A stretch of 64,000 nucleotides of DNA from Porphyridium purpureum. Lineage: Eukaryota. This document shows, piece by piece, positions 4,519 through 61,970 of the stretch. The notes beneath the pieces were generated by a model. That model was not told the origin of the DNA. It made no database searches and saw only the letters and a list, made by a program, of their open reading frames with translations. Each line of letters begins with the position of its first letter. Positions within the stretch are counted from its first letter, which is position 1. Location: assembly GCA_008690995.1 (NCBI GenBank), contig VRMN01000002.1, positions 2,170,001 through 2,234,000 on the forward strand. Reading direction: 5' to 3'. The position numbers and the translations under genes were made by a program.

Positions 4519-4520
4519 TT

Positions 4521-15730: not shown

Positions 15731-18700
15731 TTATTGGAACCGACGACCAGACCGTGATCGAAGGACATCAGCGGGATTTTGCGCAGACTCGAGAAACTCG
15801 GCAACCAATGTTTCCGGCAAGTCCTCGGACTTCTCCCAAGTCCATTCAGAGCGCTTGGCCCCGTACCACGCGACGAGAAACTCGGTGGAGCCATCGATGA
15901 GGCGCTGTTTCTGCAAACTTGCTATCTCAGAGAGGACACTGTCGCGACGCTCTCCATCCGCGTTGAAGTCATCCCTGAGTTCTACAGATTGATCAACACG
16001 CTTCAGCCTGTCAAGATGCACGAAGAATGTCTCGAAGGCATTGCGGATCGTAGCGCGGGCGCCATCGATGACTTCGAGTATATACGGACCGACCCACGGG
16101 CTCTCGAGTTTACGACCTTGAAGTGTACTCACCCCACGCCAGAGCATTACCGCGTCGCCCTCCGAGAGGCGCTGGCCTTGCTTTGTGACCTTTTCGGCAC
16201 TGCGCCTCGCATCCTTGTCGTGGCTTTTATCCGATGCGCGCAACGCTACTTGATGCATCATCCGAATCCTACCGCGTAGCTGATAGCCAAATTCCTCGAG
16301 GCTGTCCGTTTCCAGCTCGGCGTCGATCGCTGGCTGAGAATAGTCATTCGCAGTACGTCCAAACATAGCTTCGTATGGACTCACGCCAGTCGATGAATGT
16401 CGCGACGAATTATAAGCGTGCACGGATAACGGAAGCCACAGATCCCACCCGATAGACGCGTCGTGATCTGCCATCATGCCGGATAACAAGCCGCACAGCG
16501 TTCGGTTATAGCGTTCCACGACTCCGTTTGCTTTTGGATTATGTGCCATAGTAAAGACCTTCTTGATGCCGAGAAGCTGGCTGACTCGTGACAAAAACTC
16601 GGATCGAAATGCAGGTCCGTTGTCACTAAGAAGGTTCTCGGGGGGCCCAAACGGTGCGACCCATACGTGCAGAAAAGCTTCCACCGCAGATCGAGCTGAC
16701 TCGTCGACCACCGGTGCTGCGACGGTAAAACGAGTGAACAGATCAGCGACCACCAAGACCTTGGTATATCCGCGAGGTGTCTTCGGGGAAATCGTGAGGA
16801 GATCGACTGCAACAAGCTCGAAGCGTCGCGTTGGCCGACGTCTGCCGATGACTACCTGCTGCCTTCGCAGACCCTTTCGCCTTGAGCAAAACCGACATGA
16901 TTGGATGAATTCGCTGACATCCGAGGTCCAACCCGGCCAGTACCATGACGCATCCGCGATCCTTGAGATCGTCTTAGCCGCGCCCATATGCCCGCCTGCA
17001 CCCGTTGAATGATAGTATCCCAGAACACGACTCACGAACGCATCCGGAACCACACGCCGAGGCTTTTTTGTTGCCGCCATCAGAATGCCCGCCTCGTTCC
17101 AGAAGTATTCCGGGTCGCTGTACTGTGGTGTGCTTCGAGCGAGGTTCTCCATTTCTTTGGCGATGAGCTCATCTCTCGGGTACGCTGCCTTCAGCTCTTC
17201 GTCAGTTGGTAGTTCGTGTGCCGTGTTGCTGTCTTCACTCACAGCTGTGACGAGGTACGCCACGCGGTCGCCACGAGAACTCCTGCTTTCTTGTTCGTCG
17301 AGATTCATACGCGAGAGTGCGTCAGGTACCTTATTCGACGCACCCTTCACGTACTCAATAACGAACGAATAATCTGCCAAAGCCAATGCCCACCTTGCTA
17401 GACGGCCCCTCGGCTCCCGCAGATTCAACAACCATCGGAGCGGCTCGTGATCAGAGCGGACTATAATCGACTCACCGTATAGATAATGCCGACACTTACG
17501 TACCGCCCACACAACCGCAAGGCACTCTAGTTCTGTCACGGCGTAGTTCTTCTCCGCGGCAGTCAATGACCGCGATAGAAAGCACACCGGTCGATACTCG
17601 CTCGAAACGCGCTGATACAGCGCTGCTCCGAGTCCCGTCAACGAGGCATCTGTATCAAGGACCCACTCTGCTCCCGCAGATGGCTGATACAAAACCACCG
17701 TTGGGTCCGTCAGCGCCGACTTAAGGGCCTCGAATGCTAGCTTCTGCCCAGCGCCAAACCGATTGGCCCAATCGCTGCATTCAACGACCTGCTTCTTCGA
17801 ATGTTTTTTTGCGGACATGGCGAGACCTTCGAGAGACGCACGCAACGGAGCTGCGACGCGCTCGAAGTTCGGAACGAAGTCACGAAACCAGCCCACAACG
17901 CCTAGAAACCGCTGAACTTCTGTCGGATTTCTCGGTTCGGTCCATTGTCGGATGACCTCGATGTTTCGCTCTTTCGGGCGAATCTTACCATTTTGCACTT
18001 GGTGACCAAGAAATTCGATTTTGGTGCACATGAAGGAGCACTTCTTCAAAGAAAATGTGAGACCTTCTTTTTCGAAGCGTTCCAGAATTTGATCCAGTAT
18101 TTGAATGTGATCCTCTCCAGACGATGAACCTACGATGAGGTCATCGATGTAAATGAGTGCGTGTTTCCAGCGCAGGTCACCGAGGACCGTGTTCATCAAT
18201 CGTTGGAATGTTGCTGGGCTATTCGACATGCCTTGACCAATGACGCAGTATCGGAAAAGCCCCAGTGGGGTAATCATCGCGGTCAAGTCTCGGGAATCAG
18301 CGTGCAGCGGGATCTGAAAGAACCCGTCAGTCAAATCGAGAGTACTGAACAACGAATATCGACCAGCCCAATCGAGGCATTCATGCACGAGTGGGATCGG
18401 GTACTTGTCCTTCACCGTAATGGCGTTCAGGTTCCTGAAATCCGTAGTTAATCGCCACGCACCCGTCGGTTTCCGGATCAAGACGTTTGCCGAGGCAAAC
18501 GGGCCATTGCACGGTTCCAAGACATGATGATCAAGGAGCTTGCGTACCATTGTTTCTTCGGCTTCGCGCTCTGCCTCCGACCGTCGTCGCAATTTCGCCG
18601 CGGGAAAGGTCGCGCCCGGCTCCACCCGGATAACGTGCTCGACAGAGCGGGCCCTTCCGGCTTCTGCTCGGAACACTCGCCACCGCTTTTTGAGAACCCC

Positions 18701-19552
18701 ACGAATCTTCTCCCGAGTGCCGGAGTCGAGGATATGACCGAGGTCAAGCGCATTGATGAGATCGAGAGTCTCTCGTCCCATTTGCGATTCGGTCACTCGA
18801 ATACTCGCCAGCTTTTGCCCAGCGCGGATGCAGACTGGCTCCTTCGACTTGTTCTGTATAGTCCACGTTCTCTGATGTGTGTCCACAACACCTTCTGGAA
18901 GCTCGATGAGAATTTCACATTGTCCGAGTCCCGGAATCTTTGTATCCGTAACGCTTCGGATGAACGACCTTTCCTTCGTCTTATTTGTGAAGCACGGAAT
19001 ATGTTCGCCGTTCCGCATCTCGACGATTCGGTTCTTGAAGTTGAGCGAATGCGAGTGACGGTGCCAGAATTCCATGCCAATGATCAGGTCTTCCGCCAAT
19101 TCTTCGACGACGATGCATCGAAGCTTCGTTCGAAGTTGTCCCAGCCTTACCTCGACGAGTGTCTCCCATGCCGGGCCCATGTTTCCTCCCTGCGCGTGGT
19201 CCACGCGCGTACCAGTAGGCTCCATCGTGGCACCCCATCTTTCGGCGACCGTCCGCGACGTGTACGAGTACCCCGTGGCTCCCGTGTCCACTAGCGCTAT
19301 TATCGGAAGCCACAGTCCGGAAGAATCGAGGACGCGGATTGCAACAAAGGGTCGGCGGTCGATACTCCCACGCACTGAACAAAGGACTGCCTTGTCGAAT
19401 ATCTTCACAGTCCCGTACTCCCATGACACCGGTAGTAAATCGGATGGATCAGCCGGTGTGTCGCACTTTGACAAGCTCGGAACGGCCTCGATGCTCATCG
19501 CCTGTGCCGGATGCGCCCCTGCATCCGCTGATCCTTTTTGCTTTCCAGCGAG
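15731..19552 (-). CDS. Element B Pol: protease, RT, RNase H, integrase, GPY motif, C-terminal chromodomain; in frame with gag after one UGA (first ATG at 19498)
   Basis: LVDTGAT; LDLTDGFFQI, YIDD; TDAS, ELECLA, SDH, DALSR; H-H-C-C zinc finger, VDL, SDNG, NGVVER; WVGPY; EFLVAWYG...WTWE. Confidence 0.95.
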   Translation of the reverse strand, partial: LAGKQKGSADAGAHPAQAMSIEAVPSLSKCDTPADPSDLLPVSWEYGTVKIFDKAVLCSVRGSIDRRPFVAIRVLDSSGLWLPIIALVDTGATGYSYTSRTVAERWGATMEPTGTRVDHAQGGNMGPAWETLVEVRLGQLRTKLRCIVVEELAEDLIIGMEFWHRHSHSLNFKNRIVEMRNGEHIPCFTNKTKERSFIRSVTDTKIPGLGQCEILIELPEGVVDTHQRTWTIQNKSKEPVCIRAGQKLASIRVTESQMGRETLDLINALDLGHILDSGTREKIRGVLKKRWRVFRAEAGRARSVEHVIRVEPGATFPAAKLRRRSEAEREAEETMVRKLLDHHVLEPCNGPFASANVLIRKPTGAWRLTTDFRNLNAITVKDKYPIPLVHECLDWAGRYSLFSTLDLTDGFFQIPLHADSRDLTAMITPLGLFRYCVIGQGMSNSPATFQRLMNTVLGDLRWKHALIYIDDLIVGSSSGEDHIQILDQILERFEKEGLTFSLKKCSFMCTKIEFLGHQVQNGKIRPKERNIEVIRQWTEPRNPTEVQRFLGVVGWFRDFVPNFERVAAPLRASLEGLAMSAKKHSKKQVVECSDWANRFGAGQKLAFEALKSALTDPTVVLYQPSAGAEWVLDTDASLTGLGAALYQRVSSEYRPVCFLSRSLTAAEKNYAVTELECLAVVWAVRKCRHYLYGESIIVRSDHEPLRWLLNLREPRGRLARWALALADYSFVIEYVKGASNKVPDALSRMNLDEQESRSSRGDRVAYLVTAVSEDSNTAHELPTDEELKAAYPRDELIAKEMENLARSTPQYSDPEYFWNEAGILMAATKKPRRVVPDAFVSRVLGYYHSTGAGGHMGAAKTISRIADASWYWPGWTSDVSEFIQSCRFCSRRKGLRRQQVVIGRRRPTRRFELVAVDLLTISPKTPRGYTKVLVVADLFTRFTVAAPVVDESARSAVEAFLHVWVAPFGPPENLLSDNGPAFRSEFLSRVSQLLGIKKVFTMAHNPKANGVVERYNRTLCGLLSGMMADHDASIGWDLWLPLSVHAYNSSRHSSTGVSPYEAMFGRTANDYSQPAIDAELETDSLEEFGYQLRGRIRMMHQVALRASDKSHDKDARRSAEKVTKQGQRLSEGDAVMLWRGVSTLQGRKLESPWVGPYILEVIDGARATIRNAFETFFVHLDRLKRVDQSVELRDDFNADGERRDSVLSEIASLQKQRLIDGSTEFLVAWYGAKRSEWTWEKSEDLPETLVAEFLESAQNPADVLRSRSGRRFQ

Positions 19553-20668
19553 TCACTCAGATCCTAGAGGACCACTCCTTCCAACCCGATGGTGTCCACT
19601 CGCCTGAACCGGAGCTGTCTCCTGACACTCGCGTGCCCAATGCCCTGGTTGCTTGCATCGATAACACACGCTGGAATCCTGGCGCTTCTCCAGGATTTGC
19701 GCGACATGCTCCGCAATGACTGTCCAGTCCGACGCGGGGGAAATGGCTTCATTATGTCGCGGTAGCAGGCCTTCCTGGTAATCTCCACCGTGTTCTGGAA
19801 GCGATGGGCTCTCGTTGTTCTGGCGAATCGATGCAACACTCGGCGACCGGAAGCGGAAGTCACTGAACGTCAAGCGCTCGCCGTGCTCCTTCAGCATCTC
19901 GTGGAGAAGACCTTCATACTGCTCTTGCTTGGAGTGGAGCCTAGCCATCGGTTGATACCTTTTCGGTAAACCTTCGACGAAGTCCACCTTCAGGTCAGCT
20001 TCTGTCATCCCCAGCGCTGCCCCGATCTCTCGCAAGTCACGATGGAAAGCCGACAGATTCTCGTTGCGCTGCAGTCTCCGACTGCGATACTCGCTGCGGA
20101 TCGAAGAAACGATGGACTCCGACCAGAAACGCTCCTGTGCCCAGCACCACATATCCTCGGACGTCGCGCTTCGCTTCAGCTCACCATTCATAAATGCATC
20201 GTTGATCATATGCTCTGCTGGCCCGGAAAACGCGAAGACAACGCAATCGCGCGCCCATTCCTCTGGGAATCGGTGCGTGCAGTTCATCCATTTTCGATAT
20301 GTATTCATGAATCGGAGATCTCTCGGTCCACGAATCTCATTGCCTCGCATCGCATCGCGCACAACGCGCTCAAATCGAGTCTGCTCGAACAGATCCTTGA
20401 CTGGGACGACGTTGGACATTAATGCATGATCGACTATAGGCTGGTTCGGGACTGACACATTGTCCTTCGACTGCGACCACGCACTCAGCGCATCCTGCAT
20501 TGCCTCACGCATCGTGGTAGGCATGTCCGTCTTTAACTCCTCCAATTGCTCTTTCATCGAGGCCATCTGATCCCGCAGATCCTCGGCTTCCTTCGAAACT
20601 GATGCTGCAGTTGGTCGCGCCGCTCTGGAGGAAGCCGATGCGTGCACCGTTTCTTCACTGTCGTTCAT
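19553..20668 (-). CDS. Element B Gag with CCHC zinc knuckle
   Basis: CYRCKQPGHWAREC knuckle, retrotransposon-gag-like helical region (LQRNENLSAF...FVEGLP), position upstream of pol. Confidence 0.9.
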   Translation of the reverse strand: MNDSEETVHASASSRAARPTAASVSKEAEDLRDQMASMKEQLEELKTDMPTTMREAMQDALSAWSQSKDNVSVPNQPIVDHALMSNVVPVKDLFEQTRFERVVRDAMRGNEIRGPRDLRFMNTYRKWMNCTHRFPEEWARDCVVFAFSGPAEHMINDAFMNGELKRSATSEDMWCWAQERFWSESIVSSIRSEYRSRRLQRNENLSAFHRDLREIGAALGMTEADLKVDFVEGLPKRYQPMARLHSKQEQYEGLLHEMLKEHGERLTFSDFRFRSPSVASIRQNNESPSLPEHGGDYQEGLLPRHNEAISPASDWTVIAEHVAQILEKRQDSSVCYRCKQPGHWARECQETAPVQASGHHRVGRSGPLGSE

Positions 20669-20874
20669 CGTATAAAAGGGCGGTTTCAACGCTGACTAGA
20701 CCCGACGATTGACCTTTTTGTGGTTTTTAAATCCACCTAGTGCCCCAGGCACTGATGGTAATCCGCTCACGGCCAGGCCGATCTTGCAGAAAGATTAGTG
20801 AAAGATGCTCGGGTCAAAGTCCCAGACTTCACCCGAGCCAAAAAGAAAACCCGCTCACGGCCAGGCCGTCTCAC

Positions 20875-21165
20875 TGTTACCAATGCTGTGCCTTTTTACT
20901 CTGCTTCTTACCTCTTCTTTCTCCGAGCAAGACCTGACCGGCTAGTCCGGGCAGGCGCGTCGCCTTTTTATACCCTTACTTCCGCCAGGGACAGCAAGGC
21001 GCCAAGAGAAATGACAATGCAAATCATTGGCATTTCTGCGCGCGTCTAGAAGGTTCTGGAACCTCTAGAAGCTTCTAGAAACGGTTAAACGGTCTACCGG
21101 TTTAGCGGCTTACCGGTTTCGGACTAACCGAACCGTTCTAGGTGACTGGGGTCGAACGGATAACA
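20875..21165 (-). repeat. 3' LTR of element C
   Basis: Identical by eye to 26425-26715. Confidence 0.94.
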
Positions 21166-21284
21166 TCTCCCCCCCTCTTGGCTCGACGTCTCGGCGAGAC
21201 TCCAAACTAAGTTGCATTCTTGGCTCGAGGAACCCGCGCTCCGGGAGAAAACCTCTGCCTAGCAAACTTCTCACGATTCCCAAG

Positions 21285-24200
21285 TCATTCAGAGTCAGAC
21301 TCTTCGATAATTTTCAACAAGTCTGGCTCAGAATCGGACGCTGGCAGGTCGTCGGGTACTTCTTCATCATTTTCCCCTGCCATGTAGTCTTCGCGTCCAT
21401 AGTATGGCTTCAGATGTTGGATCGGAAAAACATCATGACAAGCCACACCCTCAGGCAAAATCACTCGGTAAGCATGCGAGCTTACCTTCTCAATGACAGG
21501 CACCGGACCAAGAAACTTTGGTGCCGCCAAATCACTCTTGTTCGGCCGCAATTGCGGCGCCGTGATCAACACTTGATCACCAACTTGAAACTCCCGGGCA
21601 TCCTTGCTTCGATCGAAGAACTTCTGCATTCTCCCCTGGGCTTCGATCAAATTGTCGCGGACTTCTTCATGGACTTTGCACAGGCGAAACCAGTGCTCCG
21701 CCATGTCCTTTGTCTGTCCGTCGCGCGCAGGCGTCCACCCTTCACTCGGTGGAAACCAAGGATCCCTTCCATACACCACTTTGAACGGCGCGAATCCAGT
21801 GGCACTGCTTGGTGCAGAGTTGTACGCAAACTCATACAACGGCAAGTCTCGCACCCAGCCACTATTCGTCGCCATCAACTTGAGCATTTCCCGAATCACC
21901 CGGTTCACTCGCTCAGTTTGGCCATCAGTCTGCGGGTGGTTGGCGGTAGACATAGCCAACTTCATGCCCACCCGCTTGCTCAACTGCTGCCAAAACGTGG
22001 ACGTAAACAGCGGATCTCGGTCCGATACAATTGACTTGGGGTATCCGAAACGGCTCACGACGTGCTTCACGAACAAGTCAGCACAACGTTTTGCTGTCAA
22101 GTCCTTGCGCGTTGGGATGAACAGCGCCATCTTCGAATAGCGATCCACCACAGTCATGATTGCATCACAGCTGCCTTCGCTCCGAGGCAGCTCCGTCACA
22201 AAGTCCATCGAAATGTCGACCCAAGGTCCTTCTGGGATCGACAAGGGCTTCAGCTTTCCAAACGACCGATTCTCAGACTTTGTCACTTGGCATGCGTGAC
22301 AAGTCTTCACAAAACGGCTCACGTCTCGCTTCATCTTTGGCCAGTAGAAGCGAGTTATCAAAGACGCATACGTCGTGTCCGCTCCACGGTGCCCTGCTGT
22401 CGGGATATCGTGGTGGAGCTGCATGACACGCTCTCTGAACTTCCTCGGCACGCAAACGCGATTCCTCAAGTACAAGAGCCCAGCTTCGGTTCGAAAGCCT
22501 TGGTGGGTCGGTAAATCCCCCATCAAAGCACCAAAGTCTGGGTCACTCGAGTACGAACCCACGAATGCCTGGAAACCCGCACCAAATTCATCACACCGAA
22601 CTTGGTACTCTAGCGCGTGTAACTCTGGCTTCCTCGACAAAGCATCGGCTACCACGTTCGACTTGCCCTTCACGTAGTCGATCGTGATGTCAAACTCGGC
22701 CAAAAAGTCCAACCACCGTGCTTGCCGGTCATTCAGCTCCTTCTGCGTCATCAAATGTTTCAACGCCTCATGATCCGTATGAAGCACAAACTTTGCCCCG
22801 TACAGATAAGGTCGAAACTCTCGCAGACAGTGAATGACGGCCATGAGCTCACCTTCATAGCTGCTGTACCTGGTCTCTCGGTCCAGCAGCTTCCTTGACG
22901 TAAACGCGACCGGTCTGCCTTCCTGTGCCAGCCATCCCCCCACCGCGACTTCGGAGCGGTCTGTGTACACCTCGAATGGCTTTTCAGGGTCTGGCAAGGC
23001 CAACACCGGCGCTTCCGTCAACATCCCGACAATCTTCTTGAAGGCGTTCTTGCCTTCATCTCCCAGTTCGATCAGCTGCTTCTTCGACTTTGCGTTCTGC
23101 AACAGCGAAGTCAGCGGCGCCACGACGGTAGAGTATCCTTTGACAAACCTGCGAAACCAGTTTGTCATTCCCAAAAAGGATCTCAACTCCGTCACCGTCT
23201 TTGGCACTGGCCAATCTTTCAAAGCTTCCACCTTCCGTGGATCCATCTTCACGCAACCGTTGCCGACAATGTTCCCCAGGTATTCGACTTCAGAAACGAA
23301 GAAGCTGCACTTCTTGCGCTTCAACCGATACCCCGCCTTTTGCAAGCGCGACAACACTTCCTTCAGGACCTCGCCGTGCGACTGCCTATCCTTGGTAAAG
23401 ACCAAAATATCGTCCAAGTAGACAATGACGGTCTTGTCCAGCAGATCTGCAAACAGCTCGTTCATGGCCCTCTGAAATGTTGCCGGCGCGTTGCAAAGAC
23501 CAAACGGCATCACGCGGAACTCGAACTGTCCGTACCTGGTCTGGAACGCGGTCTTCGGCACGTCCTCTCTCCGAACACGCAACTGGTGGTATCCCGATGC
23601 CAAATCCAACTTTGAGAAACAGTGAGCTGCGCCCAGTCGATCCAGCAACTCATCCATGTTCGGCAACGGATACCGGTCCTTCACAGTTGCGTCGTTCAAC
23701 GCCCGATAATCAACGCACATCCTCATGCTGCCGTCTTTCTTCTTCACGAACAGCACGGGTGCTCCAAACGGGCTCTGACTTGGCTGGACGAATCCTTTGT
23801 CCAGCAAGTCATCCAAAGTCTCTCGGAGGACTTTCAACTCCGCAGGGCTCAGTCGGTAGACCCTGCCCACTCTCACAGGCTTCTCATCTTTCAGCCTGAT
23901 CACATGCTCCACTGTTCGGCTCTCAGGCAGCCCTCGCGGCTCCTCGAACAGATTTTCGAAATCATTGAGCATCTTTCTCACAGAGTCAGCGTCTTTTCGC
24001 TCCACTGAACAGGGCTCCTCCCTTCCTTTCAGCACGCCGAGGTAGCACTCTTCTACCTCCCAACTCTTCAACAGCCGACGGAGCTCTTTCCGTGGCACCA
24101 GCATCTGCGTCATGCTCCAGGCCTTTTTTTCTCCGTAGGCCAACATGCCAGACTGCCAATCAATCACTGGGTTCTCCCGCTTCAGCCACTCCATGCCCAA

Positions 24201-24683
24201 GATTGCGTCTTGTCCCGCAATCCGGCAAATGGCAAAGTTAGCGGCCCCCGAGTACCCATCACTCAGTGTAAACTTGACATTGGAAACTTCTCCGGCTGTT
24301 TCCAATACGGACCCATCCGCTAGGGTCACATGATCTCTCTTCCACGACGCCTTATGCTTCAGGCCGTCGGATTTCAGCACAAAGTCCACGCTCATGAAGT
24401 TGTCCGTCGCGCCACTGTCAATCAAAAACGTGGCCTCTCCGTCGGACTTGTGCACTTTTCCTCGAACTCGAAGAAGCATGGCAGCTCCCATTCCTCCAAG
24501 TTCCTTGATCACGGGCTGATTTGCGCTCGAGTTTCGCCCACAAGGCGTCGGACAGCCAGACCTTGGCTTACCAAGGCCACCACAGCGGTCTCCATTGCCG
24601 CCCCTAGAGGTCTCGTAACGCCTGCGAGCCTCCTTTCCCTCTGACTGTCCGAGGAACCTTTCTACTCGAGCTCCTCGTTTTTT
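21285..24683 (-). CDS. Element C Pol (PR-RT-RH-INT, no chromodomain), probably reached by a -1 frameshift from gag
   Basis: FLIDSGAT...ILGMEWL; RMCVDYRALN, MPFGL, YLDD; TDH, ADALSR; ISMDFV, SDRD, QTDGQTER. The frame overlaps the end of gag in -1. Confidence 0.93.
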   Translation of the reverse strand, partial: KKRGARVERFLGQSEGKEARRRYETSRGGNGDRCGGLGKPRSGCPTPCGRNSSANQPVIKELGGMGAAMLLRVRGKVHKSDGEATFLIDSGATDNFMSVDFVLKSDGLKHKASWKRDHVTLADGSVLETAGEVSNVKFTLSDGYSGAANFAICRIAGQDAILGMEWLKRENPVIDWQSGMLAYGEKKAWSMTQMLVPRKELRRLLKSWEVEECYLGVLKGREEPCSVERKDADSVRKMLNDFENLFEEPRGLPESRTVEHVIRLKDEKPVRVGRVYRLSPAELKVLRETLDDLLDKGFVQPSQSPFGAPVLFVKKKDGSMRMCVDYRALNDATVKDRYPLPNMDELLDRLGAAHCFSKLDLASGYHQLRVRREDVPKTAFQTRYGQFEFRVMPFGLCNAPATFQRAMNELFADLLDKTVIVYLDDILVFTKDRQSHGEVLKEVLSRLQKAGYRLKRKKCSFFVSEVEYLGNIVGNGCVKMDPRKVEALKDWPVPKTVTELRSFLGMTNWFRRFVKGYSTVVAPLTSLLQNAKSKKQLIELGDEGKNAFKKIVGMLTEAPVLALPDPEKPFEVYTDRSEVAVGGWLAQEGRPVAFTSRKLLDRETRYSSYEGELMAVIHCLREFRPYLYGAKFVLHTDHEALKHLMTQKELNDRQARWLDFLAEFDITIDYVKGKSNVVADALSRKPELHALEYQVRCDEFGAGFQAFVGSYSSDPDFGALMGDLPTHQGFRTEAGLLYLRNRVCVPRKFRERVMQLHHDIPTAGHRGADTTYASLITRFYWPKMKRDVSRFVKTCHACQVTKSENRSFGKLKPLSIPEGPWVDISMDFVTELPRSEGSCDAIMTVVDRYSKMALFIPTRKDLTAKRCADLFVKHVVSRFGYPKSIVSDRDPLFTSTFWQQLSKRVGMKLAMSTANHPQTDGQTERVNRVIREMLKLMATNSGWVRDLPLYEFAYNSAPSSATGFAPFKVVYGRDPWFPPSEGWTPARDGQTKDMAEHWFRLCKVHEEVRDNLIEAQGRMQKFFDRSKDAREFQVGDQVLITAPQLRPNKSDLAAPKFLGPVPVIEKVSSHAYRVILPEGVACHDVFPIQHLKPYYGREDYMAGENDEEVPDDLPASDSEPDLLKIIEESDSE

Positions 24684-25468
24684 GACTCCAGCGAGTCTCC
24701 CTCCAGCTGCTGGATAGTCTTCCTTGCCTCGGGACACGTCCTGGCGATGTGCCCCGGCTCTCCACAATTCCAGCATTTGAGCTCGCTTCGAACACGCCTC
24801 TGACCCTGCACGTTCCCGAGCTCCATCGGGACAGGTCCTTCCTGCGCTGCACGACCGAAAAATGGCGTCCTCACACTTGAATCACGCACGCCGCGGGTCG
24901 CATGAATGGCGTCATCCACGACCACCGCCACCTGCGCAGCCTCCGCAAACGTACTCACTCCTCGCTTGTAAACTTCCAGGCGGACCTCGGGCTTCAGACC
25001 CCTCACAAAGCGGTCCATCATTTCTGCGTCCGACAAGTCCGGAATCACAAGTGCCGCGTCCTGAAAAGCCGCCACATACGCATGGGCCGGGCCTTTCTGC
25101 GAAAGACGCGTCAACTTGTCCCTTGCACGCCTGATCGAATCCTGCGGCGTGAACCGAGCACTCACGAGGGCAGCAAAATCATTCCACGTCGTGGGGATCT
25201 CCTGCGGGTAGCGTTCGCAGTTTAGAACCCACCAATGAAGCGCCTCTCCCTCGAAATAGTCTGATGCCAGGTCCACAGCACGCCTCTCCGCAAGCAGACG
25301 TTTCTCCAAATCGTCCGGGTGGATGCTCTCCAACAGCCGGCCCAAGATCTTCTTTCTCGCCTGGAACAACCACGTCTTCACAACCAGAAGGTCCCTCTTC
25401 CCGTCGAACCTCATCAGACGGGCCTCCTTCGGGCCACGTGGTCCCAGCGTCTCCGAATCAATCTCCAT
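24662..25468 (-). CDS. Element C Gag
   Basis: Retrotrans_gag-like core (TWNDF...RF...LSQKG...Y...F...FVRGL), GPVPMELG, CWNCGEPGHIARTC knuckle. Confidence 0.92.
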   Translation of the reverse strand: MEIDSETLGPRGPKEARLMRFDGKRDLLVVKTWLFQARKKILGRLLESIHPDDLEKRLLAERRAVDLASDYFEGEALHWWVLNCERYPQEIPTTWNDFAALVSARFTPQDSIRRARDKLTRLSQKGPAHAYVAAFQDAALVIPDLSDAEMMDRFVRGLKPEVRLEVYKRGVSTFAEAAQVAVVVDDAIHATRGVRDSSVRTPFFGRAAQEGPVPMELGNVQGQRRVRSELKCWNCGEPGHIARTCPEARKTIQQLEGDSLESKNEELE

Positions 25469-27313: not shown

Positions 27314-28336
27314 TCCGTGCACCCGTGCGCTGCTGCCGCTGGCGGTACCCAAGTCCATTGGCACCGGACCATGCTGGTTATAGTTCATCTGGGGGTGGTA
27401 TGCAGGCTGCATGGCTGACGGGTACGTGCGTGCTGTGATGGGCTGCTGGTCTCGACCACGCTTAAATATGACTTTGTCGGCAACTAAAGCCAAACGCAAA
27501 GCGTCGTCATAGGTGGGAGGGAAGTGAAGCGCTACGTGAGTGGCAATAGAAGTGTCAAGAGATTCTGTAAAATAGTGAAGTTTATCTTTGTCTACCAAAT
27601 TTGGTATACGCAGACAAACTTCACTAAATGCAGCTTCAAAATCTTGGACACTCATTGCACCCTGCTTCATCTTTTGCAGTTCATCCCGCACGTCATTTTC
27701 TGTTTCTTTTGGCTCGAAGCGCCGCTGAAGCGCGAGCAGAAACTCTTCTACCGAGGTGGGTCTCTGATCAGGTTGTAATGCCTGGTACCAGAGTTGCGCC
27801 AATCCGAAGAGGTGAGTCGAAAGCGTCGACACTGCTTCCTCTTCCTCGGTTTCCGTCCAAAGACGGCCCTGCGACCGCCAATCCGAGCGCGCCGGGTTGT
27901 ACACCCGCGAACGCGCTGCTGCCGTCCAGGTCATAATGGCCGCAGTGGATCGCTCGCCGCCATAGTACAGCATGGCCGCAGGGCGCATGCAGCTCGGCAA
28001 AGCGCCACTTCCACCGGATCCATCGCGAAGCGCCCTCAGACGAACGTTCTCGCTCCGCAGCTCGGCGAGCTCACTCTGAACAATCGCCGTCCGGGTATTC
28101 AGTTCGGTCGCCATCTTGGCGCCGAATTCCTCCGAGAGTTGGCGATGCATTTGGGCGTATGCCGCATTCAGCATCGCCGCCATCTCTCGTTTCGTTTCCT
28201 CGCGCGCGGACTCGCGCCGCGCACTTGCTGCCGCGCCAAGGCGGGTTGCCGAGGCGTTTGCACCACCGCGTGCCGGCGACGGTGTTGCTGGGGTACTAGC
28301 ACCCGCAGCCCTATCCATGTCATATTCCATGACCAA
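27245..28336 (-). CDS. Element A unit 3 truncated Gag (capsid region intact, no NC), ending in about 22 codons derived from the B LTR
   Basis: Identical to the unit 2 N-terminus through GPVPMDLG...ARVHG, then reads into the B LTR to a stop. Confidence 0.8.
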   Translation of the reverse strand: MVMEYDMDRAAGASTPATPSPARGGANASATRLGAAASARRESAREETKREMAAMLNAAYAQMHRQLSEEFGAKMATELNTRTAIVQSELAELRSENVRLRALRDGSGGSGALPSCMRPAAMLYYGGERSTAAIMTWTAAARSRVYNPARSDWRSQGRLWTETEEEEAVSTLSTHLFGLAQLWYQALQPDQRPTSVEEFLLALQRRFEPKETENDVRDELQKMKQGAMSVQDFEAAFSEVCLRIPNLVDKDKLHYFTESLDTSIATHVALHFPPTYDDALRLALVADKVIFKRGRDQQPITARTYPSAMQPAYHPQMNYNQHGPVPMDLGTASGSSARVHGCHDSLSPPYPSTHCTALPRTVP

Positions 28337-28582
28337 ACACTGGGCGCGTCGCGCTCACCAGTTGCGCTTCGAGCGCCTCTTTTTTCCTTCTCGATGTTCG
28401 CGGCGCCGATCAGCGTCTTGGCTGTCGCGCTGCCACAGTCGCTTTTCCAAAGCGTGATCGAGGGTAGAGTTGGGGAATGACCGAATGATAGAAACACTAC
28501 CACAATAGGTGGTTAGTCAAGCAAGCAAGAAGAAGAAAGATGAGGGAAACACCGCAGCGCAAAGGCTGGGCTCATAACCCTT

Positions 28583-28877
28583 TGATGATAGCGTCTTCGT
28601 GAAGCACGCGTATACCAAACGTGTACCAATAGTAAACTACTGGTGGCTAGCTGAAGCAAGAGGTCCACAACAAGACGACTTTACTCCTTAACACAACCTA
28701 GCTCTTGCCTCAAAAGGAGACAGAGCGCCGACTCGTCGGCCGTCTCTCACACTCTAATGATATACTACTGTGGTTAACCATTACGGTCACCAACCAACGG
28801 AGAGTTGTCATCATTAAGTATTTGATGACTCCTCATCACGTCATCAGGCAGGCAGAGAGGGATGACTATATTCCACG
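28583..28877 (-). repeat. Outermost 5' LTR of the A array (2 nt shorter than the internal LTRs as defined here)
   Basis: Matches 4521-4815; identity ends at ...TTCCACG and unique sequence ATAGTG follows. Confidence 0.9.
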
Positions 28878-51997: not shown

Positions 51998-54900
51998 CTA
52001 GTGCATGATGGATGACAAGCTGCTTGAAGTAATGTCCAAGCAGAGATTCGATGTTCCAATCAGCTCGCCACTGCTCGCTCGAAGAGGCCGCAGAAGCTGC
52101 AGGTACTGCTTGTTGTTGTGGTTGTAGATGTGGTCCACATTCCGCCCAGCGCGCGCGTCCATGTACATATTCAGCATGTTCTGTACCGCGGCACTATTGT
52201 TCTCACTGTTTTGATCCGAGTGCCGCGTACTACGCGACTCATCCGACGCATGATTCAGCCCAAGCGCACCTGTGTCCTTGGCTGTGGCATTCGTCGCAGA
52301 GTTCGCCCCTGTCGTGTTGCCATCGGGACCTATCGTGGACGGAGACACTTGCAGCACGTCTAACAATGACTCTCCGACACGTGGGGGCATTCCGTGAAGC
52401 GCCGGAATCGTGTCAGGGCCAGCACAACTGATGACGCGGAAAAAAAAGTCAGTGCTGAAAATGACTGCTCCAACTGAACTGCATATGAGATTGAAATGCG
52501 TATCATCCGGCGAATGTGGCGGCGAGGCCGTTGCCGACTGCGTGCGCGCTCGCTTGCGAACGCGCCGGTTGTTGGGATGCTGCTCTTGTGCTGCGTTGAA
52601 GCCCATGCCCTGGCGCTGCTGCTGAGTCGTTTCATTGTCACGCTTCTTGCCGGTCTTGCCAAACTCATCCGAGCCATCCGAGGTTATGGGCCCTGAGCTG
52701 CCGTCTCCCGCACTGCCACCCCCAGCACTGCCATCGCGGGTGCTTCCGTTTCCACTTCCATTTGCACTGAACGCACCAAAGGGGTCATTCGGCGCGGCTT
52801 CGGCGTTGCTTCCGGCACTTCCATTGCCGCTGCCACCGCTACCACCGCAGGCCTCACCCGAGCCCGCACGCGAGTTCTTCGATTCGGGATCGGAAGACGG
52901 CTGCTCTTGCGGCGATGACGGCTTCGAATCCTGCTGCTGCTGCTGGTGCTGCTGGGAATGCCCATGCTGGTGTTGCTTCTTGAGCTTGACCTTTTCTTCT
53001 TCTTTGGGACGGTGCGCCTGCTTGTCATGCACACTGTGCGACACTTGCTGCTTAGTGGCTGCCTCAACCTGAGTCGTCTTTGTCGCCACAGCAGACGATG
53101 GCTGGGATTCTTTGTGTTGCTGAGCTTGCGGTTGCTGCTGCGCGACCCGCTGCTCCTCACTATGCTCTTCCAGCCGCCCCAGCCCCTGCTGATGCTGCTG
53201 ACCAATCCGAGTGGGTCCAGACGACTCTGCTTTTTGCTTCATCGATTCGTTGGTTGGTTTTGAAGATGAAGTCGGTTTGTCCTCCTTCACTTCGCCAATC
53301 TTCGTGGCGCGCGACTCACCAACAGGGACCGCCGGGGCCTCAGCATTTGCTGTATGCCCAACAGCACTGACGCCTGCCTTTTGCTTTTCCGAAATGTCCA
53401 TGTCCATAACTTGTTGGTGACTGGGCACGGCAAAGGCATGAGCGTGGTCACGGACGCTAACATCCCGAAACATGGGTGACACGCCCGACGACTGTCGCGT
53501 CCATGCCGACGGACTGGTCTGAGGATTGTTAATAGATGGCGACCCAAACTCTGTGCAGGGTGAATAGTCGGCATACCTTGATGCCAGCATGGCCGAGTGC
53601 ATCCTTGACGTCTCTGGCTTTCCATTATGCCTTGCATAACCCTGCTGATGAGAATCGACTGGTGGCAGTCCGCCCGTCGAAGACGAACCCGGCATGTTGA
53701 GCATACTGTTTGCCGACGGATTAGGAGCCCAAGACATGCTAGGCGGCGAGAGGATACCCAGTCCCATCATGGGCATCTCGCTATATAACCAGCCCGCGTT
53801 CATCCCTGCCATGCCGCTCGGGCTCTCCATGTACCCGGCACCACTCGATGGCTGCAGCGGCATGCCCGTCAGGCTGTACGCTTGCTGATGGTGGTGAAGT
53901 TGTGGCGACGGTGACGCGGACTGCTTGTACGCGTGTGGAGGATGCTGCTGAGGTCGATGTTGATGATGTGAGCGAATCCGCGGTCCCGCGCTCCGAACTG
54001 GCGCGTCAAACACATCCCCTGGATTCCCACTCACAAATTGCGCCGCCGCGCGACCGTATGCATCCCGATGTACATACTTGGACGTGCCCGACGGCGCTCC
54101 ACTACCCAATCCCGCATACTCAAGCTCAGAGTCTCCAAAGACCGGGAACGAAGGAGAGACACTGCGCGGGTGCGTGTACGCATTAGCGATCGGCACATCT
54201 GCTGATGTCGTTCCGCGCGCGGAGTGGCGCGGCTGCGTGGTGTCGCCCTTTTCCGTGGATGATAGCATCGCCGACGGCCCCTCCATACCTTGACCCTGTT
54301 GAAGCGACTGACCGGGCGAACTATGGTGCATCTGTTGCTGAATTTCCTGCTGAAGTTGCTGCATTTGCTGCACCATGCTGAGCTGTTGCTGGTGGTGTTG
54401 CACCATCAGATTCAAATGGTGGTTGTTGTGGTTGTGCTGCTGTTGGTATTGGCGCTGCTGCTGCTGCTGTTCCTGTTGCTCCTGCAAATGCATGGTGCCC
54501 AAATGAGGATGCGGCTGCTGCTGCTGCTGTGGATAAGGCTGCTGAAAAGGACTTGCCTCGGCCTGATGCACCGGAGCGGATGATGACGCTACTCGCCCCT
54601 CTTGCGCGGCAACCGCATCTTCCACGCTCTGCCGGAATTCAGGGCTGGCAAGAAGTCGCGGCGCGACGGGTTTGACGCTCGAGCCGCGCGCAGCCGTGGC
54701 GGCGTCGGCGCGCAGAATCGTCTGCAAAAGCTTGTCGGTGAGCTCCTGCTTGCGGTTCTCAATGAGCTGCGCCTGCAGCTGAATCTCCGCTTGAGACAAT
54801 TCGTTCGTCTTGCTGTGCAGCCTGGCCATGAGGTGGTCCAGGCTCTTGTACCGGCGGAACGGCCACCGCGAGATGTTCCACTCGCGACACCAGCGCTTCA

Positions 54901-55036
54901 AAATGGTGACACAAACGCCCAGCTCCTCCGCGGCTTGCGGGATGGGCAACGAGAACGTGCGCGCAACCTTCTGCACCTCAATGCCGTCCCCGCTGCCTCC
55001 CCCCACCATCCCACGCGGCACCGACACGTCCGCCAT
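51998..55036 (-). CDS. RWP-RK transcription factor with Q-rich linker and a C-terminal PAS-like domain
   Basis: FSLPIPQAAEELGVCVTILKRWCREWNISRWPFRR; C-terminus AVIFSTD...LRPLRASSGELIGTSNLCLDIT. Confidence 0.9.
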   Translation of the reverse strand: MADVSVPRGMVGGGSGDGIEVQKVARTFSLPIPQAAEELGVCVTILKRWCREWNISRWPFRRYKSLDHLMARLHSKTNELSQAEIQLQAQLIENRKQELTDKLLQTILRADAATAARGSSVKPVAPRLLASPEFRQSVEDAVAAQEGRVASSSAPVHQAEASPFQQPYPQQQQQPHPHLGTMHLQEQQEQQQQQRQYQQQHNHNNHHLNLMVQHHQQQLSMVQQMQQLQQEIQQQMHHSSPGQSLQQGQGMEGPSAMLSSTEKGDTTQPRHSARGTTSADVPIANAYTHPRSVSPSFPVFGDSELEYAGLGSGAPSGTSKYVHRDAYGRAAAQFVSGNPGDVFDAPVRSAGPRIRSHHQHRPQQHPPHAYKQSASPSPQLHHHQQAYSLTGMPLQPSSGAGYMESPSGMAGMNAGWLYSEMPMMGLGILSPPSMSWAPNPSANSMLNMPGSSSTGGLPPVDSHQQGYARHNGKPETSRMHSAMLASRYADYSPCTEFGSPSINNPQTSPSAWTRQSSGVSPMFRDVSVRDHAHAFAVPSHQQVMDMDISEKQKAGVSAVGHTANAEAPAVPVGESRATKIGEVKEDKPTSSSKPTNESMKQKAESSGPTRIGQQHQQGLGRLEEHSEEQRVAQQQPQAQQHKESQPSSAVATKTTQVEAATKQQVSHSVHDKQAHRPKEEEKVKLKKQHQHGHSQQHQQQQQDSKPSSPQEQPSSDPESKNSRAGSGEACGGSGGSGNGSAGSNAEAAPNDPFGAFSANGSGNGSTRDGSAGGGSAGDGSSGPITSDGSDEFGKTGKKRDNETTQQQRQGMGFNAAQEQHPNNRRVRKRARTQSATASPPHSPDDTHFNLICSSVGAVIFSTDFFFRVISCAGPDTIPALHGMPPRVGESLLDVLQVSPSTIGPDGNTTGANSATNATAKDTGALGLNHASDESRSTRHSDQNSENNSAAVQNMLNMYMDARAGRNVDHIYNHNNKQYLQLLRPLRASSGELIGTSNLCLDITSSSLSSIMH

Positions 55037-57321: not shown

Positions 57322-58950
57322 TCACCCGGAGCCCTTTTGGCCCATCAGCTTGGCGACGCGAAAGATGGGCACAAGCTCCTTTCGGGGGCTGGCCGTCGCA
57401 ATAAATGGGTGCGCCATGAGCTCGGCAGTGGTGGCACGCTTAAGCGGTACGAGAACAAGACAGCGCGCCAGAAAGTCGCGGAACTCGGGCGACCATTTTT
57501 CCGGTCGGCGCAGCTTGGGAGGCGGGCTGGTCTGGATCAGTGTCAGAGCCTCAGCTGGCGAGCAGCTCAGGTTCGGAGGCTCCCACTCGGCGCACTCAAT
57601 GCCGAGAATGCCCAGCGCCCAAATATCGACCTTGTGGTCGTACGCGCATCGACGCACAAGTTCGGGCGCCATCCAGTACGGAGTGCCTACAAAACTGACG
57701 CGCTTGTTCTCTTGCTCGGTGAGCTGCGCGGCAAAGCCAAAGTCCGCAATCTTGATCTGTGCCGAGTCAGTGTCTACCAGCACATTGTCTGACTTGATGT
57801 CACGGTGAATGCGCCGCTGCAGGTGCATGTACTGCAGGCCCTGGATCACCTCCTTTAAAATGTACGCAATGTGGCATTCCTTGAGCCGCAGCCGCCGCAC
57901 GCGCGCAAAGTCGAGCACGTCCGTCAGACACCCACCTGACATGTACTCCATGGTGATCCACCAGGAGCCATCAAAGCGGAAGGTCTCATGGCACCGGACC
58001 AGGTTGCGATGCCTGAGCGTATGCATCACCTCTACCTCGGCCTCGAGCATGATGCGTTCTTGGTCTGTGGTCGGGCGCACTTTCTTGAGTGCGTAGATTT
58101 TGCGCTTCGTGCCAGATGGGTCTGTCTTGTCTGCGCCCTCCACCAAGTACACTGCACCAGAAGCACCTTCTCCAATCTTTTCGACGATGTCGTACTTGCT
58201 CTGCGGGTCGTCGTCTACGTACACCGGGGTGTCCGGCTCAACCTCTTGCTCTACCGAAACATCAGCCGAGCCGCGCATCAAGAGTTCCACCAGCGCGTCC
58301 TGTTCTGACTGCTTGGAACCGTCGGCCTTGGTGTTCTTCTGCCGATTGCTCAGCTGGCTCTCCATCGCGGGCGGAAGACCTTCAAAGCCAGTTTCAGACT
58401 CTGTGTCGTGTCGCACGTGCACTGCATGCTCGAGCATCTGCGGCGCACCGATCACATGACGATCCGGCTTGCCGCGCCGCGCGCTGCGCGACCCCTGCGA
58501 CTTGCTCTTTTTCAGCGAGTCCGATGGAGTGCCCGCGCCGGGCGTTCCAATGCCTGGCATGGTTAGTTTCTTGGGGGTCTTGCTCTTTACCGGAGTTGCG
58601 GGGCCTGGTCCAATATTGGAAAGAAAGTCAACCATGCTGTCACGTGGTACGTTCTGAAATGCGCCCGCTTTGTGCTGCTGCTGCTGCTGCTCAGTGGTGC
58701 TCTGCACATTCTCCTTGTCGTCCAGAGAGTTGGAGGATGCACCAGATACACCGGACGGCCCGTCCCACCGGTACGACTGCACCTTGGCATCAACAGTGAA
58801 TGCAGACTCTGCAGAGCTTCCGTTGCTGCTGTTCATATTTTTACCGGGGCCCTGACTACCGGGCGGAAACGCCCCGCTTCCGGCATTCGAACCGTACAGC
58901 GGGGCTGCTGGCTCCTCATCTTTTCTCCACCACTGGCGAAACAGTTCCAT
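57322..58950 (-). CDS. PAK/STE20-family Ser/Thr kinase with CRIB (p21-binding) motif
   Basis: CRIB IGAPQMLEHAVHV...GFEGLP; GEGASG, HRDIKSDN, DFG, GTPYWMAPE. Confidence 0.93.
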   Translation of the reverse strand: MELFRQWWRKDEEPAAPLYGSNAGSGAFPPGSQGPGKNMNSSNGSSAESAFTVDAKVQSYRWDGPSGVSGASSNSLDDKENVQSTTEQQQQQHKAGAFQNVPRDSMVDFLSNIGPGPATPVKSKTPKKLTMPGIGTPGAGTPSDSLKKSKSQGSRSARRGKPDRHVIGAPQMLEHAVHVRHDTESETGFEGLPPAMESQLSNRQKNTKADGSKQSEQDALVELLMRGSADVSVEQEVEPDTPVYVDDDPQSKYDIVEKIGEGASGAVYLVEGADKTDPSGTKRKIYALKKVRPTTDQERIMLEAEVEVMHTLRHRNLVRCHETFRFDGSWWITMEYMSGGCLTDVLDFARVRRLRLKECHIAYILKEVIQGLQYMHLQRRIHRDIKSDNVLVDTDSAQIKIADFGFAAQLTEQENKRVSFVGTPYWMAPELVRRCAYDHKVDIWALGILGIECAEWEPPNLSCSPAEALTLIQTSPPPKLRRPEKWSPEFRDFLARCLVLVPLKRATTAELMAHPFIATASPRKELVPIFRVAKLMGQKGSG

Positions 58951-59540: not shown

Positions 59541-61007
59541 ATGGAGCGCGCAGTGCTTCTGGATGATCGTGCGGAGCAGCTGGTGTGCGATGTGCAGCTG
59601 AGCGCGTATCGTCAGGACGGCGCCGCGGTGGCGCCTGTGGTGTCGGTGTCCGAGGTGTCAGGAATGACAATGGCCGAGCTGCGCTGTGTGCTGCTCCGCG
59701 ACACGGCGCGCGACGTATTGTGCATGTACGTGCTCTCTGCAGAAGACGCCACTGTGGGACAGGCGTATCCTGCAAAGTATTCTGCCCAGGCCGCGCTGCT
59801 CTTTTGGGAATGTACGGCCGCCCTGTACCATGACTTCAAGGCAAAACAGGCGCTGCGAGTGCGGTACAATGCGCTTCACTTGCACGTGGCCCGGCTACTA
59901 CACCTCGCGGCAGATCCAGACTCGTCGTATCGTGCCATCCTTCTCTCGGCTGATCAACATGAGCGACAAGGAAACGACGACGTTGACGCGCATGCGCAGC
60001 TCTTAATTATCGAACTCGGCGAGTTCAAGGCTATCAATCACATCACCATCCCACTGGTTCGCGCAGACGACCACTATATGCGCCGGTACCTCGGCCGAAA
60101 GTTGGAGCTGGCGTTTCAGAAAATCGAGCAGTTCCAGGAGCAGAATGCGCAGCTCGGTGACGAACTGCGTTGCGCAAAGCAAGAGCTACGAAGTGTGGAG
60201 GAACAGTCCCGCATTCATCGTCAACACATGGCACAAGCAGAGTCAGAACACACTGCGTTGAGCAAGGAGAGAGACGAACTGATGGCGATGGTCGCGACCC
60301 TCAAGGAATCACAGCAGGTGCTCGAGTCGACGCTGGCGTTGAGCCGAGCGGCCACCGTGGATCTCGAGGCGGAGAAGCAACGGACAGCTTCATTAGAAGG
60401 GGCTGTGCAGGAGCGCACAAACCTGGTGGAAGCCTTGCGTGCGCGAGTTGATCAGGCCGAGCGGGAACGCGACGAGATGCGAGCTGAGAATGTGCAATTG
60501 GCGTCGCGATTGGCCGATGCGATGGCCCAGGTGCAGGATCGCAAGCACGACCACGACGAGCTGAGCGCACTGAACAATGAGCTGCAAATACGCGTGACAG
60601 AGCTTGAGGCCTCGCACGCCTCGCAAGAATCGATTCTTGCAAGCGCTGACCAGGAGGCCCGGGCGCGCGACGCCGAGCTTGCCGAGCTAAGAAAACGCGC
60701 CGATGCAGCCATTGCCGGACATGATTTGCACGCGGCCGAGCTCGCGTCTCTACGCGAACAGCTCGCGCAGGCGCAATCCGAGATCAGGCACCTTCAAAGG
60801 AACAGCGCGAACGACCAACGCGTGATTTCGTGGCTCAATCGGGAGCTGAACATCAGCGCTCGCGCATCCACGGCATCCCGCGGCGCGACAAACGAGCTCC
60901 GTGTGCCTATCCCCAGTTCCAGTGCCCCGCAAAGCGCGGCTCCTCGTGGTGCGCCGATCGCCGCTGCCACGCACGCACCAGGAGGCGCAGTCACGGCTCA
61001 CCCGTGA
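59541..61007 (+). CDS. SAS6: SAS-6-like centriole cartwheel protein (head domain plus long coiled coil), 488 aa
   Basis: PISA-like YHDFKAKQALRVRYNAL...LL; LLIIELGEFKAINHITIPL...DD...RYL (compare LNVVETNPFKHLTHLSLKL); about 250-aa coiled coil ending VISWLNRELN. Confidence 0.8.
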   Translation: MERAVLLDDRAEQLVCDVQLSAYRQDGAAVAPVVSVSEVSGMTMAELRCVLLRDTARDVLCMYVLSAEDATVGQAYPAKYSAQAALLFWECTAALYHDFKAKQALRVRYNALHLHVARLLHLAADPDSSYRAILLSADQHERQGNDDVDAHAQLLIIELGEFKAINHITIPLVRADDHYMRRYLGRKLELAFQKIEQFQEQNAQLGDELRCAKQELRSVEEQSRIHRQHMAQAESEHTALSKERDELMAMVATLKESQQVLESTLALSRAATVDLEAEKQRTASLEGAVQERTNLVEALRARVDQAERERDEMRAENVQLASRLADAMAQVQDRKHDHDELSALNNELQIRVTELEASHASQESILASADQEARARDAELAELRKRADAAIAGHDLHAAELASLREQLAQAQSEIRHLQRNSANDQRVISWLNRELNISARASTASRGATNELRVPIPSSSAPQSAAPRGAPIAAATHAPGGAVTAHP

Positions 61008-61347
61008 ATGGGGGTTATGCCGCGCGGCTCACGACAACGCTCCCGAAGCACAGTGTCGGTCTATATAAAAACTGGCATGTTTCAGTATGAACGCGCGTAA
61101 CGGCTCGCGCATGTTTTGCGCAACGATAAAATATCCGGTGCGCAGGCGTTTGCTCTGGCGCTGCAAGTCAGACCGTGAACTGTGTCTTGCTTGCAAAGCG
61201 TGAGCCAAACTATCAGTTGAGCAGATGAAGGCTCGTTGCAGTGCATCGATGCCTCTGAGGTAGACCCTTTTATCGCCGGCCGAGAGACGAAGAGAAAGGG
61301 AAGACCGAGGAAAAGGGTGGAGGTATTGAGTCAAGCGTACGCGCAAG

Positions 61348-61620
61348 ATGGTGGCAGGACGCGGCGCAGCTGGCCATCCGGCCGTGGAAAAAGCGCACTC
61401 CGAATTTGCGGAGAAGGAGCTCGAAGTGGTGGGCTCGGCCGTGAAGACGGCCGGGGAGACCGTGTATGGAGGAGTCAAGGCGGCCGGCGAGGCCGTCATC
61501 CATGGCGGTGAAGCGGTGGTTCATGGCTTGGAAGGGATGCCCGCGCACATGGGTCTGCCTGGCACAGAGACACCGCCCGCGGCCGCCGCAGAGAAGACGG
61601 TCGGCACGGAGGACAAGTGA
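61348..61620 (+). CDS. Small Gly/Ala/Val-rich repeat protein, LEA-like
   Basis: 11-mer-like repeats VKTAGETVYGG / VKAAGEAVIHG. Confidence 0.5.
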   Translation: MVAGRGAAGHPAVEKAHSEFAEKELEVVGSAVKTAGETVYGGVKAAGEAVIHGGEAVVHGLEGMPAHMGLPGTETPPAAAAEKTVGTEDK

Positions 61621-61970
61621 TGCTAGTGGTCGTGAATGTCATTAAATACGTTATTCCATGTTTATTCGTTTTTGCAGGGCGATTTTCTTCTTTTCTCCGG
61701 ACCAGCTCCGAAGGACAACGGGGGGAGCCCTGCAGTGATGCAGAGCTTCATATCATCATTTGGACTTCAATTTTTCACACAAATCGGTGGCACATGCGTT
61801 CGCAAAGAGTGTTCACATTTCCACAAGACTTTCACAGGGCCAAGTGCTCTCCAGCGGCCACACACTGGCAAAGCAAAAAAAGAGGAAACAAAAGAACAAT
61901 GGAATCCAAAAAAGGAGGCACGCATGCATACGGCGCAGCCACTCACGAAATAACCAAGCGCGCGTCAATG

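What the first reader, a model, noticed from the sequence alone, without database searches (positions are those of the whole stretch)
59541..61007. SAS-6 homologue in what appears to be a red alga, a lineage without centrioles or flagella
Seen: a PISA-like segment, the E-x-x-x-F-K-x-x-x-H hairpin with Phe at 60024-60026, a long coiled coil, and the distal I-x-WLN-x-ELN motif. Established: SAS-6 builds the nine-fold cartwheel through head-to-head contacts using this Phe (human F131); red algae lack centrioles and have ring-shaped polar rings or nucleus-associated organelles at the spindle poles. Inference: a retained SAS-6 could scaffold that organelle, giving a centriole-independent SAS-6 ring system. 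The host identity is itself inferred.
Basis: partly seen in the sequence, partly recalled or inferred. Interest (0 to 1): 0.8.

Follow-up and report, generated by a model that had tools for sequence, protein, structure and literature searches.

The report
Centriole scaffold gene in red alga
A red alga, from a group that has no flagella or centrioles, carries an intact and transcribed gene for SAS-6, the protein that elsewhere builds the centriole's ring scaffold; here its stalk is shorter, and it likely helps build the small body at the alga's spindle poles, which is untested.

Summary
Window 59541-61007 is an intact 488-aa ORF, transcribed at low level, that encodes a divergent SAS-6. It passes the Pfam SAS-6_N cut-off, and its predicted head fold ranks SAS-6 above CCDC61 and XRCC4. 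Phe162 aligns with the ring-closing Phe of Leishmania SAS-6, and the distal VISWLNRELN motif is SAS-6's own. The protein is identical to a Porphyridium purpureum record, so the host is a red alga. UniRef already labels it SAS-6-domain-containing, and SAS-6 is published from centriole-less Ostreococcus and microsporidia. Ten paper searches listed no study of a red algal SAS-6. New here: the hairpin-to-motif distance is 269 residues against 342-353 in 22 references, and the 3' splice in the NCBI model has no RNA support. The polar-ring role is plausible but untested. The scan had not noted this protein before; it noted a parallel case (SAS-4 in Ostreococcus).

The parts
59541..61007 (+). SAS-6 coding sequence, 488 aa, read as one exon. 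In-frame ATGs also lie upstream (NCBI starts 15 codons earlier); 59541 fits the homologues' starts best.
   Evidence: stranded RNA reads cover it without joints; contigs of runs X16 and X14 span it with 8 and 7 other letters and 0 gaps
59577..60068 (+). Globular head, residues about 13-176: predicted strands 47-54, 59-66, 87-92, 130-136, 151-158, 165-174 and helices 93-103, 109-124; low-confidence stretches at 22-44 and 70-83; first strand poorly modelled
   Evidence: AF2 model, mean pLDDT 75.7; Foldseek and VIA matches
59799..60056 (+). Pfam SAS-6_N match (residues 87-172), including the PISA-like helix-turn-helix segment
60024..60026 (+). Phe162, tip of the hairpin, equivalent of Leishmania F257 that mediates head-to-head contact
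60069..60851 (+). Coiled-coil stalk, residues 177-437, about 77 residues shorter than in most references
60813..60851 (+). Conserved SAS-6 motif at the distal end of the stalk (residues 425-437)
60852..61004 (+). Short Ala/Pro/Ser-rich tail, likely disordered
   Evidence: sequence; disorder is inferred from composition
60922..61357 (+). Intron implied by the NCBI 562-aa model, which fuses SAS-6 to the next small gene; not supported by RNA
   Evidence: reconstructed from P0002; no joint in 4674 laid reads of X24, depth 2.5 at 60927-61113 then 266 in the next gene

Best explanation
This is an intact, transcribed, strongly diverged SAS-6 gene of the red alga Porphyridium purpureum, whose product is predicted to dimerise through its coiled coil and likely joins head to head through Phe162 into a small ring that likely scaffolds the centriole-free body at the spindle pole. 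Shown: identity, head-stalk-tail architecture, retention of the hairpin Phe and the distal motif, transcription, shortened stalk. Inferred from the family: coiled-coil dimer (about 0.9) and head-to-head polymerisation (about 0.7). Inferred from cell biology only: location at the polar ring or nucleus-associated organelle (about 0.5). If the ring were nine-fold with a 23-nm hub (both assumed), spokes would be about 38 nm and the disc about 98 nm across, against about 49 and 121 nm for the references.
For: Family identity from Pfam, PDB sequence search, ESM Atlas, where the ten best hits with a family all share one family or clan, led by SAS-6_N, an independent profile and fold order SAS-6 Z 15.5 (rmsd 3.3, 163 aligned) over CCDC61 10.6, PAXX 9.7, XRCC4 9.2. 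Both ends that matter for a cartwheel persist despite a median core identity of only 21% to 27 references: the hub Phe and the distal motif. The gene is read on the right strand at depth 4-15 in about a fifth of run X24, its frame is intact in two other runs, 2 of 3 variants in it are synonymous, and its codon use lies within the range of 8 neighbouring genes. Red algae have polar rings in place of centrioles (PMC6492006). SAS-6 alone crystallises as nine-fold rings (PMC3939493).
Against: Only 17 of 45 columns that are at least 85% conserved in the references are kept; the DPFF stretch is replaced by an insertion and the hairpin reads ELGEFK where references mostly read ETNxFK. The branch is very long, about 10 changes per column against a median of 0.35. 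No second red algal SAS-6 was found: 2 hits in 1.84 billion representatives, itself and Monosiga, and 32 profile hits of which none other is named from a red alga and 9 have no organism; these searches are insensitive. The same head interface makes linear arrays in Toxoplasma SAS6L (PMC12819142), so a kept Phe does not imply a ring. SAS-6 clusters of 425-478 aa occur in arthropods and nematodes, which have centrioles (general knowledge), so shortness alone does not show a new role. From recall, not checked: the Porphyridium pole organelle was described as granules rather than the hollow ring of florideophytes.
Confidence: 0.45

Rival explanations
1. The protein still polymerises head to head but as an open filament or spiral, or in another symmetry, on microtubules or elsewhere in the cell, as SAS6L does in the Toxoplasma conoid.
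For: SAS6L forms linear arrays with SAS-6-like interfaces (PMC12819142); residues around the hairpin and head loops have changed.
Against: SAS6L lacks the tail (PMC3697468), while this protein keeps a 260-residue stalk ending in the SAS-6 distal motif, which fits a radial spoke.
Confidence: 0.22
2. A relic under relaxed selection, or a coiled-coil dimer kept for a role that needs no polymer.
For: Very long branch and loss of 28 of 45 conserved columns; low expression; no close relative found.
Against: Frame intact, transcribed, hub Phe and distal motif both kept although cilia were lost before red algae diversified (PMC9010356); many substitutions at conserved columns are conservative. The variant count (2 of 3 synonymous) is too small to weigh much.
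Confidence: 0.18
3. Porphyridium has an unseen centriole-bearing or flagellate stage.
For: SAS-6 mostly tracks centrioles (PMC3697468).
Against: Red algae are described as without ciliated stages, centrioles or basal bodies (PMC6492006; PMC9010356); the protein is far more diverged than those of centriole-bearing references. Partner genes could not be searched.
Confidence: 0.04
4. The gene came by horizontal transfer, or is contamination in the assembly.
For: The tree cannot place it and holds no archaeplastid reference.
Against: It sits between a PAK-type kinase and a Yippee gene, and the record and two neighbours share one 2,407,698-base longest contig; 18 of 24 listed runs hold half or more of the words of the 5.1-kb stretch, 20 holders in 9 studies, 5 rows marked as a possible source; GC3 0.67 lies within the neighbours' 0.55-0.77. 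Contamination is very unlikely; old transfer is untested.
Confidence: 0.06
5. It is another protein of the same fold (CCDC61, SAS6L, PAXX, XRCC4), not SAS-6.
For: CCDC61 clusters score 0.86-0.88 in the Atlas; SAS6L chain 9y9z scores Z 14.0, close to the SAS-6 rows; the model was built on a SAS-6 alignment and leans that way.
Against: Pfam, PDB sequence search and the distal motif point to SAS-6 without any model; SAS6L has no tail.
Confidence: 0.03

Closest known systems
Canonical SAS-6 (Leishmania 4CKP, zebrafish 2Y3W, Chlamydomonas Bld12p 3Q0X, Monosiga record P0005)
   Same: Head fold, hairpin Phe, long coiled coil, distal motif, low-complexity tail.
   Different: Stalk about 77 residues shorter than in 17 of 22 measurable references, head with insertions and median 21% core identity, host group without centrioles.
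SAS-6 of Encephalitozoon cuniculi, Ostreococcus tauri and Nosema bombycis
   Same: SAS-6 kept where no centriole is known (PMC3697468, section read; the Nosema paper seen only as a title in a reference list).
   Different: Red algae have a described ring-like pole organelle as a candidate site. Sequences of these proteins were not compared here.
SAS6L of apicomplexans and trypanosomes
   Same: Same head and interface used outside the centriole.
   Different: SAS6L lacks the coiled-coil tail and forms linear arrays; this protein keeps tail and distal motif.
CCDC61/VFL3, PAXX, XRCC4
   Same: Shared head fold followed by a coiled coil.
   Different: Lower structural scores (Z 10.6, 9.7, 9.2 against 15.5) and no sequence support.

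Membership tests
SAS-6 | N-terminal SAS-6_N domain with PISA segment | tested here: met
   Pfam above cut-off; profile 33.0 bits against best shuffle 8.2; only the second half of the Pfam model (59-135 of 135) aligns
SAS-6 | Beta-barrel head capped by helix-turn-helix | tested here: met
   AF2 model pLDDT 75.7, Foldseek E 1.1e-6 to 4CKP, VIA Z 15.5 to 2Y3W; model guided by a SAS-6 alignment, first strand low confidence
SAS-6 | Hydrophobic residue at the hairpin tip (Leishmania F257, zebrafish F131) | tested here: met
   F162
SAS-6 | About 300 residues of coiled coil after the head | tested here: met
   residues 177-437, about 260 residues, shorter than the references
SAS-6 | Conserved motif at the distal end of the stalk | tested here: met
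   found in 23 of 29 references and here; 0 of 2000 shuffles reach the score
SAS-6 | Head-to-head oligomerisation into nine-fold rings | not tested
SAS-6 | Location in a centriolar cartwheel, with SAS-4, CEP135 and STIL partners | not testable with these tools
   no genome held; host group described as without centrioles
SAS6L | Head without coiled-coil tail | tested here: not met
   long stalk present
CCDC61 / PAXX / XRCC4 | Closer sequence or fold match than to SAS-6 | tested here: not met
   listed and ranked below SAS-6 by fold and by Atlas features

The most novel reading that the evidence does not exclude
The red algal polar ring is a naked centriole cartwheel: a SAS-6 ring with shortened spokes and no microtubule triplets, kept after cilia were lost, so a defining organelle of red algae is a direct relic of the centriole and the first cellular SAS-6 ring outside one.
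Probability: 0.3. Interest if true: 0.85.

Novelty: new variant of a known kind. Interest (0 to 1): 0.55.

Why it matters
Red algae are defined partly by having polar rings instead of centrioles, and none of the papers I could see names a protein of that organelle. A SAS-6 that keeps both its hub residue and its spoke-end motif is a specific first candidate. P. purpureum can be transformed (PMC6110788, abstract start in a search listing), so tagging and F162E tests are feasible. If SAS-6 is at the poles, it links the organelle to the centriole and shows what a cartwheel does without triplets. If not, it is one more case of SAS-6 outliving the centriole.

Tried and rejected
Genome census of SAS-4, CEP135, POC1, delta/epsilon tubulin and IFT genes: not possible, no genome held. 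Head-dimer prediction: tool not available, no verdict. Search for other red algal SAS-6: 1 of 435 candidates passed, itself; 2 hits among 1.84 billion representatives; 2 of 737 with the Monosiga head; 32 of 7995 with a 3-sequence profile. The phmmer search found only one canonical SAS-6, so these blanks do not show absence. JGI metagenomes: 1 of 281 pattern matches passed, a 47-residue match at 34% (L001), not followed. First AF2 model: its alignment put strand 59-66 on the wrong reference strand and left residues 42-83 unfolded; it still ranked SAS-6 first but was replaced. The better alignment was picked by trying query boundaries until it matched the Pfam register, which is a choice of mine. 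Tree: long branch, composition flagged, mostly animal references; it says nothing on origin. The 77-residue shortfall equals 11 heptads, but one value in seven would do so and the references vary (342, 343, 346, 353), so I give it little weight. Pfam Sas6_CC (PF18594) was not listed for this protein; 11 of the 31 other hits lack it too. Run X21 covered next to nothing. Variants inside SAS-6 for X14 and X16 were not among the rows shown, so no dN/dS. Literature: searches listed no paper on a red algal SAS-6 or on polar-ring proteins, judged from titles, abstract starts and term counts, with only the top 20-30 rows seen in the broad searches; most subscription papers are not held. Hodges 2010 and the P. 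purpureum genome paper were not held under the ids tried; one supplementary file of PMC3697468 could not be searched and its presence/absence figure is not held, so whether red algae were in that panel is open.

Full report
Observation. The stretch 59541-61007 on the + strand is one open frame of 488 residues. Pfam gives SAS-6_N at 29.3 bits, cut-off 25, residues 87-172; the other 4 listed families are weak matches below their cut-offs. Among solved structures the two best of 4 sequence hits are Leishmania SAS-6, E 0.0033 and 0.061, and Phe162 (60024-60026) aligns with F in 4CKP and with E in 4CKN. 4CKN is the F257E mutant, which abolishes head-to-head dimerisation (PMC3939493, passages). In the ESM Atlas the best hit scores 0.96 and the ten best hits with a family share one family or clan, led by SAS-6_N, with CCDC61 lower; the recognition value, 2293, is just under the tool's 2300 mark. 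The head alone scores 0.89, a lead only.

Independent profile. A search with three heads returned 32 proteins, all carrying PF16531. I used 29 of the 31 non-Porphyridium hits, dropping two near-duplicates. Their profile scores the head at 33.0 bits against a best of 8.2 in 1000 shuffles, and the full-length profile also aligns its stalk-end consensus on VISWLNRELN. That motif occurs in 23 of 29 references and scores 29.1 bits here, with 0 of 2000 shuffles reaching it.

Fold. With an alignment of 27 references, AF2 gives mean pLDDT 75.7 with confident strands and helices from residue 47 on, apart from a loop at 70-83; residues 22-44 are poor. Foldseek puts Leishmania SAS-6 first, E 1.1e-6. VIA ranks SAS-6 chains at Z 15.5 down to 11.7, SAS6L at 14.0, CCDC61 10.6, PAXX 9.7 and XRCC4 9.2. 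The model leans towards SAS-6 because of its alignment, so the sequence evidence carries the assignment.

Host and gene. The protein matches a record named Porphyridium purpureum, KAA8497398.1, which UniRef calls a SAS-6 N-terminal domain-containing protein. The V-ATPase B and PAK-type kinase of the window are exact records with the same sources and the same longest contig. Stranded reads of run X24 cover the ORF at depth 4-15 on the expected strand, about a third of the kinase's depth, with no joints. Contigs of X16 and X14 span it without gaps. Codon use is within the range of 8 neighbours. The NCBI model splices residue 460 to the next small gene through an implied intron at 60922-61357. 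No read joint supports this; depth falls to 2.5 after the stop and rises to 266 in the next gene. At this low depth a minor splice form is not excluded.

What differs from canonical SAS-6. The distance from hairpin Phe to distal Trp is 346 in 17 of 22 measurable references and 342-353 in all 22; here it is 269. The references are mostly animals and choanoflagellates, and SAS-6 clusters of 425-478 aa exist in arthropods and nematodes, so the canonical length is not universal. Core identity to references has a median of 21%, against 56% among them, and 17 of 45 conserved columns are kept. The head has insertions, one in place of the DPFF stretch. The tree gives a very long branch and cannot settle the origin.

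Mechanism. Shown: a diverged SAS-6 that keeps the hub residue and the spoke-end motif and is expressed. Established for the family: stalks dimerise, nine dimers join by their heads into a ring, and spokes reach the pinheads at the periphery (PMC9592557, passages; PMC3939493). Red algae have no centrioles and have polar rings instead (PMC6492006, passage). Inferred: the dimer polymerises through Phe162 into a small ring, about 98 nm across if nine-fold with an assumed 23-nm hub, that scaffolds the spindle-pole body. I put this whole chain at 0.45. The main rival is an open polymer like SAS6L in the Toxoplasma conoid (PMC12819142, passages), then a relic.

Against and limits. No other red algal SAS-6 was found. 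If polar rings are general and SAS-6 is confined to Porphyridium, the model fails; the searches are too weak to say, since the single-sequence search found only one canonical SAS-6. From recall and unchecked, the Porphyridium pole organelle looks less like a hollow ring than those of florideophytes.

Prior knowledge. SAS-6 in organisms without known centrioles is in print for E. cuniculi and O. tauri (PMC3697468, section 18 read), and a paper on SAS-6 in Nosema bombycis exists (title only). Passages of PMC4979663, PMC9010356, PMC2837639 and PMC11190437 state that red algae lack cilia and centrioles or add nothing on SAS-6 in them. Ten searches listed no study of a red algal SAS-6, within the library's limits. 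The scan's own notes hold no look-alike of this protein and one parallel case in Ostreococcus.

Verdict. A real, divergent, short-spoked SAS-6 in a centriole-less red alga: a new variant of a known family, already labelled by automatic annotation, with an untested but directly testable link to the polar ring. Interest 0.55.

Noticed in passing
window 1-14530: Near-perfect tandem repeat with a period of 5636 bases (99.99% identical over 8894 bases); the 1682-aa ORF at 4856-9904 joins Ty3-type gag, protease, a partial integrase and an RVT_2 (copia-type) piece; part of the unit recurs at 27314-28877. A recent duplication of nested LTR retrotransposons or an assembly artefact.
   Followed up: partly
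window 15731-25468 (-): Two further Ty3/gypsy-type elements with separate gag and pol ORFs, one with a weak chromodomain match.
   Followed up: no
window 61348-61620 (+): Highly expressed 90-aa Gly/Ala/Glu-rich ORF with no Pfam match, which the NCBI model fuses to SAS-6; its 3' end meets that of the convergent Yippee gene near 61640-61660.
   Followed up: partly
window 57322-58950 (-): PAK/STE20-type kinase with a weak CRIB (PBD) match, divergently transcribed about 590 bases from the SAS-6 start.
   Followed up: no
window 51998-55036 (-): 1012-aa RWP-RK transcription factor with in-frame length variants between isolates.
   Followed up: no
   Followed up: partly
window 59979: A D147N variant in 12 of 16 reads of run X24, in the loop before the hairpin of the SAS-6 head.
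   Followed up: no
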